Positions 26,356-59,867 of a stretch of DNA of 64,000 nucleotides are shown in pieces. Origin of the DNA: Eledone cirrhosa (taxonomy: Eukaryota); NCBI GenBank assembly GCA_964016885.1, contig OZ024755.1, positions 38,564,001 through 38,628,000 of the forward strand, in the 5' to 3' direction. The first letter of the stretch is position 1, and each line of letters opens with the position of its first letter. Position numbers and translations under genes: made by a program. Under the pieces are notes generated by a model, which did not search any database, was not told where the DNA came from, and saw only the letters and a program-made list of their open reading frames with translations.

Positions 26356-26480
26356 TGAAGTACATGTACTACGGAAAAAGTACACAATCCATTATAAATA
26401 CAAATATCTTGCTTGAGATACACCAACGCATTACATATATATATATATATATATATATATATATATATATATATATATAT

Positions 26481-27155
26481 ATAGTAATAATAATAAATTT
26501 GAAGACTAAAATCCAAAGAGGGCTCGATAAGGATAAATATATATCAAATATATAAGAACCGTAGAGCAAATATTTATTAAAATAACAGATTAAAGTTCAA
26601 GCAAAGAATCGCTGCTTTCACCCATAACGGGATCTTCTGAAACTAACAAAGTCAATCTGTGAACGCAGAATATATATATATATATATGCAAAAGTTCTAT
26701 TTAAAGTTGTTGGACAGCCTCCAAAAGTAATGGTTGTATTTTAAAAGGGTACGTCAAAGCTATTTGTAAAACTGTTATATATTGTATTTTGTCTGATGAA
26801 GGCATACCATAATTTAATATGGTATCCCTGAAATATGTATAATGAAATAAATATGGTTTTATAAATATAGTTTCCATTTATTAATATCGTATATATATAT
26901 ATATATATTTAAAAGAATAGAGGTGTAAATATATATATATATATATATATATATATATATATATATAGTAATAATAATAAATTTGAAGACTAAAATCCAA
27001 AGAGGGGTCGATAAGGATAAATATATATCAAATATATAAGAACCGTAGAGCAAATATTTATTAAAATAACAGATTAAAGTTCAAGAAAAGAATCGCTGCT
27101 TTCACCCTTAACGGGATCTTCTGAAACTAACAAAGTCAATCTGTGAACGCAGAAT
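26481..27155 (-). mobile_element. Two direct ~190-bp copies (26481-26670, 26966-27155) of a TA-embedded element with a hammerhead-like variant core
   Basis: Near-identical copies; further copies at 38093-38145, 47909-47975 and 52683-53060. Minus strand reads CAGAAGA-tccc-gttaa-gggt-GAAA (U4A core variant, no clear stem I or UH). Confidence 0.6.
26787..26845 (+). ncRNA. Hammerhead ribozyme-like motif (type I, degenerate stem I)
   Basis: CTGATGA (26793-99), stem II AGG-c-ATACCATA/TATGGTAT-c-CCT, GAAA (26830-33), TATG-TA; stem I pairs poorly. Confidence 0.55.
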
Positions 27156-27180
27156 ATATATATATATATATATATATATA

Positions 27181-27371
27181 TAACGAAGGAAATGTGGTAA
27201 GGAACCAGGTGGACCATAACGCACCAAAGTACTCAATACTTGAGGTAGTAGAGTGGGTAATAGGAACCAGTAAGACCCCGACAGCTGAGCTCAAGCCGTT
27301 TCGACGGCTAATTCTGAGAATTAGCCGTCGAAACGGCTTGAGCTCAGCTGTCGGGGTCTTACTGGTTCCTA
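27181..27371. mobile_element. TA-flanked foldback element, family A (55-bp arms centred at 27316)
   Basis: Perfect inverted repeat 27261-27315/27317-27371 containing TTTC...GAAA-CGGC-TT-GAGCTC; same family at 59391-59595, 53073-53232 and 52160-52220. Confidence 0.9.
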
Positions 27372-27456
27372 TATATATATATATATATATATATATTTAA
27401 AAGAATAGAGGTGTAAATATATATATATACATATATATATATATATATATATATAT

Positions 27457-28125
27457 GTAAATATCTTTAAGTCGTTTGGAAGCCTCGACAATGCAAATGG
27501 GTAAATCTCCGGGTAACAAGGTCCGGTGGTGGAGAGAGAGATGTAAGTGGGTGTACGTTGAGATGCGTGGTGTGTATAAGATGTGTAGAATGAAGGGAAG
27601 AGTAAAAGGATAAAAATAAAAATAACAACACAAGAGAGAGTTACCTTGGGAGAGATTTAATAGTCCCTATATATTTCGGATTCACATCCATCAACTGGGG
27701 GTTTTTTCCGGGGTGGGGGAAAAGGTTGTCTGTCGGACAAGTCCGGAAGGCGTCTTTCGCTGTTTGTTGACAGCGAAAGACGCTTTCTGGACTTGTCCGA
27801 CAGACAACCTTTCCCCCACCCCGGAAAAAACCCCCAGTTGATGGATGTGAATCCGAAATATATAGGGACTATTAAATCTCTCCCAAGGTAACTCTCTCTT
27901 GTGTTGTTATTTTTATTTTTATCCTTTTACTCTTCCCTTCATTCTACACATCTCACACATCTTATACACACCACGCATCTCAACGTACACCCACTTACAT
28001 CTCTCTCTCCACCACCGGACCTTGTTACCCGGAGATTTACCCATTTGCATTGTGGATGCTTCCAAACGACTTAAAGATATTTACTTATTGTTCCACAATG
28101 CTTCAAGCAAACTTCAATACTCTCA
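27457..28125. mobile_element. TA-flanked foldback element with ~310-bp arms centred ~27766
   Basis: Arms 27457-27763 and 27770-28084 are near-perfect reverse complements (mirror ORFs MCCYFYFYP on both strands); each arm has a hammerhead-like variant. Confidence 0.92.
27831..27868 (+). ncRNA. Atypical hammerhead-like motif (core CAGUUGA); mirror copy ~27664-27701 on minus
   Basis: CCC-CAGTTGA-T-GGAT gtga ATCC-GAAA-TATA-TA-GGG: topology intact, but two core substitutions. Confidence 0.45.
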
Positions 28126-28237
28126 TATATATATATATATATATATATATATATATATATATAACATATTAAGATGACAGAAAGCAATTCTTAAATTATG
28201 TTATCCTTATTACAATCACAAACTCAATAGAAATAGA

Positions 28238-56927: not shown

Positions 56928-58250
56928 GTGGTTCACTTGTTACGACCAACATTACAACAATAGGAGCAGATGTGAAGTTAGGACATGTCTTTGTGTGGTT
57001 GACTTGTTACGACCAACATTACAACAATAGGAACAGATGTGAAGATAGGACAAGTCTTTATGTGGTTCACTTGTTACGACCAACATTACAACAATAGGAG
57101 CAGATGTGAAGTTAGGACATGTCTTTATGTAGTTCACTTGTTACGACTAACTTTACAACAATAGGAGCAGAGGTGAAATTAGGACATGTCTTTATGTGGT
57201 TCACTTATTACGACTAACATTACAACAATAGGAGCAGATGTGAAGATAGGACATGTCTTTATGTGGTTCACTTATTACGACTAACTTTACAACAATAGGA
57301 GCAGAGGTGAAATTAGGACATGTCTTTATGTGGTTCACTTATTACGACTAACATTACAACAATAGGAGCAGATGTGAAGTTAGGACATGTCTTTGTGTGG
57401 TTCACTTATTACGACCAACATTACAACAATAGGAGCAGATGTGAAGTTAGGACATGTCTTATGTGATTCACTTGTTACGACCAACATTACAACAATAGGA
57501 GCAGATGTGAAGATAGGACAAGTCTTTTTGTGGTTCACTTGTTACGACCAACTTTACAACAATAGGAGCAGATGTGAAGATAGGACAAGTCTTTGTGTGG
57601 TTCACTTGTTACGACCAACTTTACAACAATGGGGTTTTTAGAATAATTTAGACACTGAGAAGAACGAAACTCCAGAATATAGAATTCAAGTTGTTCACAC
57701 ATTCACTGATGTAAGACCTTGGATACATCTCTAGTGTTGTATCATGGAGTCAGTGGGACTTTATACGGGTGTAATAACAGATACACACACACTCACACAC
57801 ATCCGCCGCCCCCCCCCCTATATACTTACACACACACTCGCACTCCCCATATATACTTACACACACATATATATTTGTGAAACAGCAGATATACACATAC
57901 ACACACATATATATATACACACACATATATATATACACACACATATACACACATGTATACACACATAAGTATATACACACATATATAGTCACATAGATAC
58001 ACCTTATATATGTATTTACAAATATACACACATACTTTTGGAGCAGATGTGAAGTTAGTCTTTATGTGGTTCACTTGTTACGACCAACATTACAACAATA
58101 GGAGCAGATGTGAAGATAGGACATGTCTTTATGTAGTTCACTTGTTACGACCAACATTACAACAATAGGAGCAGATGTGAAGATAGTACATGTCTTTATG
58201 TAGTTCACTTGTTACGACCAACATTACAACAATAGGAGCAGAGGTGAGAC
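56928..58250. repeat. 67-bp minisatellite interrupted by a ~400-bp insert (57631-58038)
   Basis: Unit GTGGTTCACTTGTTACGACCAACATTACAACAATAGGAGCAGATGTGAAGTTAGGACATGTCTTTAT; preceded by a SINE-like segment at 56805-56927. Confidence 0.93.
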
Positions 58251-58254
58251 AGTC

Positions 58255-59300
58255 CTCATAGTAAACTCACAGCAAATCTACAAACACTGCTGAATAAAAT
58301 TGAAAGAATGTCATGGGAATATAGTCTGGAGATCAACATCAAAAAGACAAAAGTAATGGCAGCAACTAGACAGAAGGTAGAAATGAACATAGGTTGCCAA
58401 GGTGCCAGGCTTGAACAAGTCGAGAAGTTCAAATACGTTGGTTCAAAACTTGAGCAGACGGCAGAGGGAAGTTGGGAAATAAGGGTGAAACTAGCAACTG
58501 CAAGAACAGTCTTGAGCACTCTCGGCAGTCTTTGGATGGATAGAGCTCTTACAAAGTACCCAAAAGAAAGTAATCAAAACATTAGTGTGGCCAGTAGCTC
58601 TATAAGGTTGTGAGTTGAGGACTTTAAAGGCATCTGACTTAAAACGACTGAGTGTATTTGAAATGTCATGCTATAGGTGTGCACTTAGAATTAGCTGGAC
58701 AGCTCACAGAACAAATGAATCTGTCCTGAAAGAGATTGGTGCCAATTGACAGTTGGTTGAAACAGTAAAGAAGAGGTAACTTCAGTATTTTGGTCATGTC
58801 ATCAGGCCCCAAAATTTGACTACCCACATCCTTGGGGGACGAATACAAGGGAAAAGGCCAGGGGACGGCAGAAAAGGAGATGGAGAGATGATATTAAGGA
58901 AGGGACAGGAGGGAGGAATACAGGGGAAAAGGGCCAGGGGACGGCAGAAAAGGAGATGGAGAGATGATATTAAGGAATGGACAGGAGGGAGGAATACAGG
59001 GGAAAAGGGCCGGGGGATGGCAGAAAAGGAGATGGAGCGATGGTATTAAGGAAAGGACAGGAAGCAGGAATACAGGGGAAAAGGGCCAGGGGATGGCAGA
59101 AAAGGAGATGGAGAGGAATACAGGGGAAAAGGGCCAGGGGTCGGCAGAAAAGGAGATGGAGAGATGATATTAAGGAAGGGACAGGAAGGAGTCTGGTGGA
59201 ATGTACAGCAATGGCAAGAGACAGGAAAAGATGGAGAGTGCTGGTCCATAAGTCTTTGACCCCCGACCCTCAGATATAAGGATGAGATGAGGCTAGGCTA
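58255..59300 (+). mobile_element. 5'-truncated RTE/BovB-like LINE 3' end
   Basis: LEINIKKTKVM, LEQVEKFKYVGS, LQYFGHVIR, GRIQGKRARGRQKRRWRDDIKEWTG, ARDRKRWRVLV; frameshifts. Confidence 0.88.
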
Positions 59301-59390
59301 TACACACATATATTCACACACATGCAGACATGTATATGCAAACAGACACACACATGTAAACACAGATATATATATATATATATATATATA

Positions 59391-59595
59391 ACGGAGGAAA
59401 TGTGGTAAGGAACCAGGTGGACCATAACGCACCAAAGTACTCAATACTTAGGGTAGTAAAGTGGGTAATAGGAATGAGTAGGACCCCGACGGCTGAGCTC
59501 AAGCCGTTTCGACGGCTAATTCTGGACTAAGAATTCGTCCAGAATTAGCCGTCGAAACGGCTTGAGCTCAGCCGTCGGGGTCCTACTCGTTCCTA
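59391..59595. mobile_element. TA-flanked foldback, family A (~59-bp arms, loop 59528-59536)
   Basis: Homologous to 27181-27371; perfect inverted arms 59469-59527 and 59537-59595. Confidence 0.9.
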
Positions 59596-59867
59596 TATAT
59601 ATATATATATATATATATATATATATATATATATATATATATATATATAATCTCCACACACATATACACACTTTAAATCCACCTTATGTATTTAAACACA
59701 GATATATACACACATATACACATATGATATGGTATGGTCCCGTAACTCTTGATAAAGTGGTAGGAGCGCCGTAGGGACTTACATCGTTTCTCGGGCATTT
59801 TAAGCCTGGCGTAGCCCTTCCCTGTCCAGGCCTGAGAATAGTAGATTTCTGCTAGAGAGAGGAAGAA

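What the first reader, a model, noticed from the sequence alone, without database searches (positions are those of the whole stretch)
26480..59600. A diverse community of hammerhead-ribozyme elements parasitising (TA)n microsatellites (retrozyme/Penelope-dependent system)
Seen: several distinct short non-coding sequence families sit inside (TA)n tracts and share type I hammerhead architecture: 26787, 27831, 38351, 44491-46962 (x9), 47697/49964/50104, 50503, 52294, 52512, 53797/53986. Stems I and II differ in sequence but usually pair. Stem III is mostly tiny and self-complementary (CGCG, CGATCG, TGCGCA, TATA). Established: Penelope-like elements carry minimal type I hammerheads with palindromic stem III loops in their pLTRs, and metazoan non-LTR retrozymes are short tandem hammerhead repeats thought to be PLE-mobilised. 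Inference: this genome hosts a TA-targeted ribozyme mobilome of about 20 motifs in 33 kb, mobilised in trans by a PLE reverse transcriptase.
Basis: partly seen in the sequence, partly recalled or inferred. Interest (0 to 1): 0.92.

Follow-up and report, generated by a model that had tools for sequence, protein, structure and literature searches.

The report
Rearranged hammerhead ribozyme in jumping repeats
These TA repeats are full of known Penelope-type mobile elements with self-cutting RNA motifs, but one very abundant family carries a hammerhead ribozyme whose parts are wired in a scrambled order, so far described only from environmental sequence.

Summary
The motifs are real: 17 canonical type I hammerheads plus 2 U4A variants in 26480-59600, against a shuffle mean of 0-0.05. 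Most are not trans-mobilised parasites. Families at 26793, 47704/50093/50111, 53859/53994 and 27831 are 5'-truncated 3' ends of autonomous Penelope-like elements (PLEs), mainly Hydra clade, whose (TA)n targeting and hammerheads are published. The 310-bp array (4,581 exact motifs genome-wide) is an ordinary non-LTR retrozyme.

Two elements (37222-37697 +, 32209-32872 -) belong to tandem, non-coding 530-800-bp families carrying a non-circularly permuted hammerhead: cleavage site, then GAAA, then CUGANGA (type-SGC order). Two patterns give 9,495 and 1,007 genomic matches against 1 and 2 controls. Stems I, III and the I-II interaction helix covary. Position 17 is A, C or U, and G in only 66 matches. 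Unlike published SGC ribozymes, the stem II partner strand comes from upstream through a helical junction, a wiring the published model assumed not to occur. SGC ribozymes were reported from no known organism's genome. Cleavage, expression and the mobilising PLE are inferred, not shown.

The parts
37222..37697 (+). 5'-truncated copy (476 of 533 nt) of tandem family D, a non-coding retrozyme-like element, with its 3' end in (TA)n
   Evidence: 98-100% identical to the 533-bp unit of tandem arrays L244-L249; 1,342 first-look candidates
37530..37631 (+). Permuted (S-G-C order) hammerhead. Helix IIa 37530-33/37628-31; hairpin 37534-55; helix IIc 37556-59/37587-90; interaction helix 37561-66/about 37607-13; stem III 37570-74/37595-99; predicted cut after 37575; stem I 37576-81/37614-19; GAAA 37592-95; CUGAUGA 37620-26
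   Evidence: alignment A1 and pair counts; permutation scan
32209..32872 (-). Copy of the 630-bp subfamily of family D, slightly more than one unit long; permuted hammerhead 32328-32227, predicted cut after 32282
   Evidence: 90.5% and 98.6% identical to the 630-bp tandem unit of L272
44358..47121 (.). 310-bp non-LTR retrozyme array, 4.7 units (-) head-to-head with 4.2 units (+), nine type I hammerheads with an ACGCGU palindromic stem III and a U-U stem II base; arms end 139 and 165 nt after the cut site
   Evidence: fold z -4.96; 4,581 exact motifs in the genome vs 0 control
50361..50677 (-). Family G: monomer of a 316-319-bp tandem relative of the 310-bp retrozyme (about 75-78% identical over the 3' part); type I hammerhead with a hairpin stem III, core 50567
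   Evidence: fold z -5.61
26484..26669 (-). Family A: pLTR/3' end of a Hydra-type PLE, hammerhead with U4A core (CAGAAGA). Further copies at 26968-27153, 52684-53057 (inverted), 47910-47967, 38093-38143
   Evidence: near-complete element in L127 and RT-EN body in L128; U4A in at least 97% of copies
26688..26889 (+). Family K: 3' end of a Hydra-type PLE; type I hammerhead, core 26793
   Evidence: Hydra-type endonuclease upstream in L128
27457..28124 (.). Family C: inverted 3' end of an RT + GIY-YIG PLE that is not Hydra-type; hammerhead-like motif with the non-canonical core CAGUUGA near 27836
   Evidence: upstream ORF in L211 has RVT_1 (E 5.8e-8) and GIY-YIG (E 4.8e-5); 14 EN-linked matches in 10 loci, of 46 copies
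47145..47886 (.). Family F: 3' ends of a Hydra-type PLE; hammerhead with a 101-104-nt stem II (47704+). Second insertion at 49758-50275 (50093-, 50111+)
   Evidence: endonuclease upstream in L085 only; fold z -5.69
53673..54182 (.). Family J: head-to-head inverted 3' ends of a Hydra-type PLE; hammerheads at 53859- and 53994+
   Evidence: endonuclease P0003 upstream in several loci
52465..52631 (-). Family I: type I hammerhead with a 62-nt stem II (core 52598); parent element not found
   Evidence: no PLE ORF in up to 3.6 kb upstream in two loci
52241..52411 (-). Family H: hammerhead with a long stem II; this copy has U4C
   Evidence: parent unresolved
38226..38513 (+). Family E: damaged copy of a type I hammerhead family
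   Evidence: majority core CUGAAGA among 17 hits
59391..59593 (.). Family B: inverted, 5'-truncated ends holding only the GAAA half; also at 27183-27369, 53076-53240, 52156-52219. Longer genomic copies have a YUGANAA core and a stable stem III
37685..37989 (.). Inverted 3' end of a 422-bp type I retrozyme (stem III ACUAGU); no hammerhead left in this copy
   Evidence: tandem unit in L117

Best explanation
The region is a stack of nested insertions made by (TA)n-targeting Penelope-like elements. Each element carries a hammerhead 40-220 nt before its 3' end, and most copies are 5'-truncated, so short TA-bounded pieces with a hammerhead remain. Five families are ends of autonomous PLEs (shown). 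The tandem families are non-autonomous retrozymes (no ORF shown; use of PLE enzymes inferred). Family D and its relatives use a non-circularly permuted hammerhead. A contiguous stretch of about 102 nt places the cleavage strand first, GAAA second and CUGANGA last. Stem I, stem III and a helix tying stem I to stem II form as in type-SGC ribozymes. Stem II is reduced to the 10.1-11.1 pair, from which one helix (IIc, with an upstream strand) continues and another (IIa) closes the domain across a hairpin. The pairings are supported by covariation; the fold and catalysis are inferred. Proposed cycle (inferred): a multimeric transcript cuts once per unit (after 37575) without needing a dimer, because stem III has 5 bp. 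The monomer is circularised. A PLE endonuclease nicks (TA)n, and the reverse transcriptase primes at a short internal AU run 123 nt after the cut and rolls round the circle, giving 0.5 to 5 or more units. A second priming on the other strand gives the head-to-head arm with a different 3' end.
For: Motif excess over shuffles. Endonuclease linkage for families A, J, F, K and C, and for 0 of 37 D and 0 of 87 310-bp copies. Hydra motifs in P0001-P0003 against the clade definition. In 8 of 8 complete inverted 310-bp loci one arm ends at 138-139 and the other at 165-170, the PLE 'tail' of PMC8557442. Permuted motif: 9,495 matches vs 1 control; a second stem III sequence gives 1,007 vs 2; G17 only 66. 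On 31 copies 94.6% of cells pair and 16 of 33 pairs show double changes; 0 of 500 shuffles reach this, and slid controls pair 26-48%. Stem I, which the pattern does not constrain, has at least 5 bp in 31 of 39 genomic matches vs 1 of 102 metagenome and 0 of 35 viral chance matches. Distant families keep every helix with other letters (L113, L197, L124). Units of 533, 630 and 753 bp are tandem, with longest stop-free frames of 98, 159 and 130 codons. A stem II of one pair under a stacked helix has a crystal precedent (PMC11300833).
Against: No cleavage or RNA evidence. Relatedness inflates covariation: 166 of 10,885 column pairs pass the same filter and only 14 are model pairs, although the top three are. 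Helix IIc has only one pair with double changes in A1, and the 10.1-11.1 pair is canonical in 24 of 31 copies. 19 of the 31 aligned copies were hand-picked from pattern hits for diversity, two more also came from pattern hits, and the pattern fixes the core in these 21. Single-sequence folding is unremarkable (z -1.2 and -1.7; pseudoknots not modelled). The insertions could come from uncut linear multimers rather than circles. No 3'-end similarity between a retrozyme and an autonomous PLE was found for the 310-bp unit. In bioRxiv 10.64898/2026.07.22.740005, 8 of 9 predicted retrozymes did not cleave in vitro.
Confidence: 0.78

Rival explanations
1. The permuted motif is a conserved RNA structure derived from a hammerhead but does not cleave, or cleaves only with a protein. 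It serves for binding of the PLE reverse transcriptase, and insertions are copied from linear multimers.
For: Stem II is not a plain helix. PLE hammerheads often cleave poorly in vitro (PMC4209133). Young, amplifying families A and C keep non-canonical cores, so amplification does not need a perfect core.
Against: The core also survives in copies found by homology rather than by the pattern (17 distinct rows). Positions 7 and 17 vary just as hammerhead chemistry allows: A, C or U at 17, and G in 66 vs 9,495 matches.
Confidence: 0.17
2. One reading: all families are non-coding ribozyme parasites moved in trans.
For: No PLE protein match in the window itself. Parents of families B, E, H and I were not found.
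Against: Five families lie directly downstream of their own PLE ORF elsewhere in the genome.
Confidence: 0.05
3. The inverted and tandem structures are assembly artefacts or satellite expansion by unequal crossing-over, and the motifs are chance.
For: Perfect palindromes and TA tracts are error-prone in assembly. Long arrays may have grown after insertion.
Against: Arms differ by 4-5% and end at fixed, different positions. Families are dispersed over many contigs. The 310-bp junction stands in four public runs. Shuffles and decoys give about 0.
Confidence: 0.02

Closest known systems
Type-SGC hammerhead ribozymes / HRIMA-1 (Eckert et al. 2023, PMC10085705)
   Same: S-G-C strand order, full core, short linker from stem I to stem II, helix joining the other sides of stems I and II, covariation in stems I and III.
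   Different: Those were found in metatranscriptomes, in no known organism's genome, with stem II directly after CUGAnGA. Here the motif is in animal DNA, at 10,500 or more copies, in tandem TA-inserted repeats. Block C is interrupted: the stem II 5' strand and the interaction strand lie upstream, held by an extra helix and a hairpin.
Non-LTR retrozymes (Cervera & de la Pena 2020, PMC7229834; Li et al. 2026, bioRxiv 10.64898/2026.07.22.740005)
   Same: Tandem, low-GC, non-coding units with one hammerhead per unit; proposed PLE dependence. The 310-bp family fits fully, including the U-U stem II base and the palindromic stem III.
   Different: Defined with type I hammerheads. Family D has a permuted motif and longer units (530-800 bp). 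TA targeting and inverted arms with two 3' ends are not described for retrozymes in the passages read.
Hydra clade PLEs, including Hydra-1_Obim (Craig et al. 2021, PMC8557442)
   Same: DKT and RW-basic motifs, CxCx5C linker, C-terminal endonuclease without CCHH, (TA)n targets, hammerhead near the 3' end, inverted truncated copies with a tail.
   Different: Many families in one genome; stem II insertions up to 104 nt; a U4A core in a young family; tails near 80 nt in several families.
Pseudoknot (PK) hammerhead (Zhan et al. 2024, PMC11300833)
   Same: Stem II cut down to A9-G12 plus the 10.1-11.1 pair, with another helix taking the role of helix II.
   Different: It keeps the classical C-G-S order; one helix is formed from loop 2, not a junction of several helices.
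Minimal PLE hammerheads (Cervera & de la Pena 2014, PMC4209133)
   Same: Type I, palindromic stem III, long stem II, U3-A8 covariant (family B), opposite-strand pairs 100-700 bp apart.
   Different: Nothing essential for the type I families here.

Membership tests
Type-SGC hammerhead (family D) | 5'-3' order: cleavage block, GAAA block, CUGAnGA block | tested here: met
Type-SGC hammerhead (family D) | All core nucleotides conserved; position 7 free; position 17 not G | tested here: met
   homology-found copies; G17 in 66 vs 9,495 matches; A/C 19/12 in A1
Type-SGC hammerhead (family D) | Stems I and III with covariation | tested here: met
   stem I has three pair types; stem III has three different sequences across families
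Type-SGC hammerhead (family D) | Short linker from stem I to stem II, and an interaction helix | tested here: met
   3-5-nt linker; 5 of 6 interaction pairs show double changes
Type-SGC hammerhead (family D) | Stem II 5' strand directly after CUGAnGA (uninterrupted block C) | tested here: not met
   the letters after A9 do not pair with those before GAAA beyond one pair; each pairs with a separate upstream strand
Type-SGC hammerhead (family D) | Site-specific self-cleavage | not testable with these tools
   needs an in vitro assay
Non-LTR retrozyme (310-bp family) | Dispersed tandem non-coding units, low GC, one type I hammerhead per unit, no linked ORF | tested here: met
   0 of 87 copies EN-linked
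Non-LTR retrozyme (family D) | Type I hammerhead in each unit | tested here: not met
   the motif is permuted; tandem, non-coding and 41% GC are met
Non-LTR retrozyme (both) | Accumulates as circular RNA | not testable with these tools
   no RNA run was available to lay
Hydra clade PLE (family A) | DKT in place of DKG; RWK-like motif | tested here: met
   SDKT and RWR in P0001, RWH in L127
Hydra clade PLE (families A, J) | CxCx5C linker, C-terminal endonuclease without CCHH, CxxC and CxH around E/N | tested here: met
   P0002 has CxCx5C and CxxC; P0003 has Cx5C and CxH; read by eye
Hydra clade PLE (family A) | Canonical hammerhead near the 3' end | tested here: inconclusive
   architecture present but core U4A; canonical in J, F and K
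Hydra clade PLE | RT phylogeny groups with reference Hydra elements | not tested
   no reference proteins were held; the nearest Atlas cluster is unnamed, mostly eukaryotic, commonest phylum Cnidaria (score 0.98)
Nematis clade PLE (family C) | RT plus C-terminal GIY-YIG with a cysteine linker; clade by phylogeny | tested here: inconclusive
   RVT_1 and GIY-YIG found; linker resembles two Nematis rows in the supplement; no tree

The most novel reading that the evidence does not exclude
An animal genome holds 10,500 or more copies, in several diverged families, of an active hammerhead with a topology outside the six permutations so far allowed: non-circular order plus a stem II rebuilt as a four-way junction. 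It drives a group of circular retrozymes that PLEs insert into (TA)n. Such motifs are invisible to existing descriptors and may be widespread in animals.
Probability: 0.6. Interest if true: 0.88.

Novelty: new variant of a known kind. Interest (0 to 1): 0.74.

Why it matters
Non-circular permutations of RNA were reported only in 2023, in sequences of unknown hosts. A young, high-copy genomic family with many natural variants gives a host, a biological role and ready-made compensatory mutants. It lets one test how a permuted ribozyme arises from, or replaces, a type I motif. It also shows that ribozyme censuses of animal genomes miss a class, which may bear on PLE families listed as having only a 'half core' (PMC8557442). 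The rest (Hydra PLE ends and a type I retrozyme in TA tracts) is ordinary but useful for repeat curation.

Tried and rejected
Rfam gave only microsatellite-driven miRNA-type matches in the rows shown and nothing at gathering score. Pfam did not recognise the Hydra proteins: 0 of 12, and no real family for P0001-P0003. The run search with the 310-bp unit listed no RNA holder. Laying four runs showed a 310-nt 'goes back' joint in contigs of unknown kind; three coded organisms hold it as one low-depth 340-nt contig (depth 10-15, against about 10^5 in the fourth), which I reject as evidence of horizontal transfer because carry-over would look the same. No run search was left for family D. The permuted pattern in metagenome (116+ stretches) and viral contigs (46) gave chance matches only: 0 of 102 and 0 of 35 scored matches had all four helices. 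Type II and type III readings of family D fail, because there is no downstream GAAA and no direct stem II. The 2.9-kb spacing between two D copies is not an autonomous D element: it holds an unrelated antisense PLE. The parent of family I was not found. The unbiased sample is 200 kb from C1-C3 only and held no SGC motif (about 0.7 expected from the pattern counts). RNAalifold recovers the hairpin, the interaction helix and stem III, but not the crossing helices or IIa. Three look-ups of earlier findings returned nothing. Lunse et al. 2017 on dimeric PLE hammerheads was not held and may describe core variants. One sequence truncated by TA (L088:1629) was left out of alignment A1 (31 of 32 used).
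Full report
SETTING. The window lies on contig C15 of a 3.0-Gb genome in 1,796 contigs. Its repeats resemble those of octopod cephalopods (recalled resemblance, not tested). In 26480-59600, 78 (TA)>=6 tracts make up 6.8% of bases, against 3.1% in 20 evenly spaced 10-kb stretches of C1-C3.

OBSERVATION. A scan requiring the core, stem I of at least 4 bp, a closed stem II of up to 130 nt and a palindromic or hairpin stem III finds 17 canonical and 2 U4A motifs in the region. 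Twenty local shuffles give means of 0.00 and 0.05, and three decoy cores give 0. 27831 (core CAGUUGA), 38351 (damaged) and 52294 (U4C) do not, but belong to families with hammerhead architecture. In the 200-kb sample there were 12 motifs (9 after counting identical pairs once; shuffles 0,0,0,0,1), and 10 of 12 lay within 200 nt upstream of a TA tract, against 11.4% expected. If C1-C3 are typical this means of the order of 10^5 motifs; that is a rough extrapolation. Across 958,406 bases of fetched loci, a sample biased towards these families, 219 distinct hits fell into 33 clusters, with stem II from 12 to 104 nt.

WHAT THE TYPE I FAMILIES ARE. Genome searches gave 1,303 to 2,733 first-look candidates for families A, F, I, B and C, and 26 for J. 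Following copies upstream showed coding sequence. L127 holds pLTR, RT, endonuclease, 3' UTR and a second pLTR of family A within about 3.4 kb, and L128 holds the same body. The RT has SDKT, RWR and YRDD; the endonuclease has CxCx5C and lacks CCHH. This matches the Hydra definition in PMC8557442 (section 11 read). That paper's supplement lists (TA)n preference for 26 of 27 Hydra families and canonical hammerheads, including Hydra-1_Obim (part 2 read). Same-strand endonuclease linkage without a TA gap was found for A, J, F (one locus), K (one locus) and C. It was not found for B, E, H, I, G, D (0 of 37 copies) or the 310-bp family (0 of 87). Family C's ORF has RVT_1 and GIY-YIG domains. No match to these PLE proteins was found in the window. 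So much of the 'community' is the residue of 5'-truncated autonomous PLEs.

THE 310-BP ARRAY. It is a dispersed young family: 4,581 exact motifs vs 0 control, with copies mostly 98-100% identical. In 26 loci (five overlapping pairs), every element end inside a locus abutted TA repeats. In 8 of 8 complete head-to-head loci, one arm ended 138-139 nt and the other 165-170 nt after the cut site. This is the inverted-copy-plus-tail structure described for PLEs (passages of PMC8557442). The short end falls in an internal AT run, which suggests priming by microhomology (inference). The family fits non-LTR retrozymes (PMC7229834: passages and part 3 of 6), and their PLE origin is argued in bioRxiv 10.64898/2026.07.22.740005 (parts 1-3 of 5). 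Palindromic stem III implies dimer cleavage (PMC4209133, parts 1-2 of 4).

THE PERMUTED FAMILY. The CUGAUGA hits at 37620+ and 32238- have GAAA upstream, not downstream. Homologues showed the order: stem III 3' arm + UH + stem I 3' arm, then GAAA + stem III 5' arm, then stem I 5' arm + CUGANGA. This is type SGC of PMC10085705 (part 3 of 8, sections 4, 15 and the first part of 18, passages and supplement passages read). That paper states that no such RNA was found in the genome of a known organism, apart from one weak GCS candidate. The window copy is part of a 533-bp unit, tandem at several loci, 99-100% identical, and in the young copies examined always ending 123 nt after the predicted cut in (TA)n. 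Relatives have 630- and 753-bp units, and L271 shows the head-to-head form with ends 40 nt apart. A pattern fixing only stem III, GAAA and the core gave 9,495 matches vs 1 reversed control. With another stem III sequence it gave 1,007 vs 2; with G at 17 it gave 66, scattered over subfamilies. A generic scan found SGC order 2 times in the window and 15 times in other loci, against 0 in all shuffles, and 0 times in the 200-kb sample.

STRUCTURE. On 31 copies (19 chosen from pattern hits for diversity) the model has 33 pairs; 94.6% of cells pair and 16 pairs show double changes; 0 of 500 shuffles reach these values, and slid partners pair 26-48%. Relatedness matters: 166 of 10,885 column pairs pass a like filter, 14 of them in the model (42% of model pairs vs 1.4% of others), including the three best. 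An independent check is stem I, which the pattern leaves free: at least 5 bp in 31 of 39 genomic matches vs 1 of 102 metagenome and 0 of 35 viral matches. All four helices scored in 18 of 39, 0 of 102 and 0 of 35. The departure from published SGC is stem II. The letters after A9 (GGAC or GGAU) pair with an upstream GUCC or AUCC (15 G-C vs 13 A-U at the outer pair). The letters before G12 (GCGA) pair with an upstream UCGC (the double change UUGC/GCAA occurs in two separate clades), and a covarying 7-bp hairpin links the two upstream strands. Positions 10.1 and 11.1 pair in 24 of 31 copies, in four pair types. Three distant families keep this plan with other letters. The interaction strand follows UCGC directly, as it follows stem II in published SGC, so IIc is the likely stand-in for stem II, with IIa and the hairpin as the cross-arm of a four-way junction (inference). 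PMC10085705 assumed this block cannot be interrupted, so descriptors built on that assumption would not catch it (inference). A one-pair stem II under a stacked helix is known from the PK hammerhead (PMC11300833, sections 4, 7, 8 read), and single-pair or U-U stem II from PMC3088659 (section 8).

MECHANISM. Shown: sequence architecture, copy numbers, TA insertion, tandem and inverted structure, covariation, ORF linkage or its absence. Inferred: cleavage, circularisation, rolling reverse transcription, and trans-mobilisation by a PLE. Insertions contain the cut site internally and often exceed one unit (32209-32872 is 1.03 units), so the template was either a circle or an uncut multimer. The mobilising clade is unknown. 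Hydra is abundant and TA-specific, but one D copy is fused head-to-head to an antisense PLE with a CCHH-type endonuclease (L269), a single hint at another partner.

NOVELTY. Eight searches of the held library found no report of a permuted hammerhead in an animal genome or retrozyme. The library omits most subscription papers, and Lunse et al. 2017 could not be read. A 2026 octopus repeat annotation counts 31 recently active PLE families and does not discuss ribozymes in the parts read (PMC13282606, parts 1-2 of 3). PMC13725137 and PMC10162972 (passages) add nothing on this form.

VERDICT. The finding as written is real but largely known (interest about 0.35). The permuted hammerhead inside the same coordinates is a new variant of a known kind, well supported as a structure and untested as a catalyst (overall interest 0.74).

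Noticed in passing
window 26639-, 27123-, 52749-, 52903+ (family A) and about 27836+ (family C): Two unrelated young PLE families both have A at core position 4 (CAGAAGA; CAGUUGA), fixed in nearly all copies. These are either tolerated core variants or inactive motifs.
   Followed up: partly
L037, L073, L094, L216, L228 (family B): Full copies have a YUGANAA core (U3-A8 or C3-A8), a long stem II and a stable 6-bp stem III; 2,161 first-look candidates; parent unknown.
   Followed up: partly
L269 (G000:C1:34436500-34439800): An antisense PLE with a CCHH-type endonuclease lies between two family D copies and is joined head-to-head to the second; the same spacing recurs near C1:35462724. It may mark the mobilising partner.
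   Followed up: partly
fetched loci other than the random sample: Five hits in type III (SCG) order vs 0, 0, 1 in shuffles; not inspected.
   Followed up: no
L124 near 7682, L056 near 2900: A third stem III variant of the permuted motif (GACA/UGUC); not counted genome-wide.
   Followed up: partly
L013-L030: 5' junctions of the 310-bp family recur at unit position 228-229, an AT run in a hairpin loop; three separate loci share the same inversion junction.
   Followed up: no
window 1078-24710: A 65-bp satellite of 364 copies with no hammerhead hit.
   Followed up: no
window 29728-29898, 31884-32064, 35717-35899, 36782-36966, 53291-53476, 59873-59961: Six copies of a SINE-like repeat of about 180 bp; resemblance to a cephalopod SINE is recalled, not tested.
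   Followed up: no
window about 28200-29600, 40400-41800, 58250-58850: Decayed coding stretches that look like RTE-type LINE fragments by eye; no PLE protein match.
   Followed up: no
window 44041-44311, 32859-33150: Further TA-bounded inverted elements without a visible hammerhead; the first has a 40-nt tail.
   Followed up: partly
runs X1, X5, X6: The 310-bp unit appears as a single low-depth cyclic contig under three other organism codes; carry-over is the simplest reading.
   Followed up: partly
L311: One metagenome match to the permuted pattern has a 9-bp stem I but no clear interaction helix.
   Followed up: no
window 54591-55076, 56927-57630, 58836-59115, 33680-34691: Minisatellites of 16, 67, 76 and 35-41 bp.
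   Followed up: no
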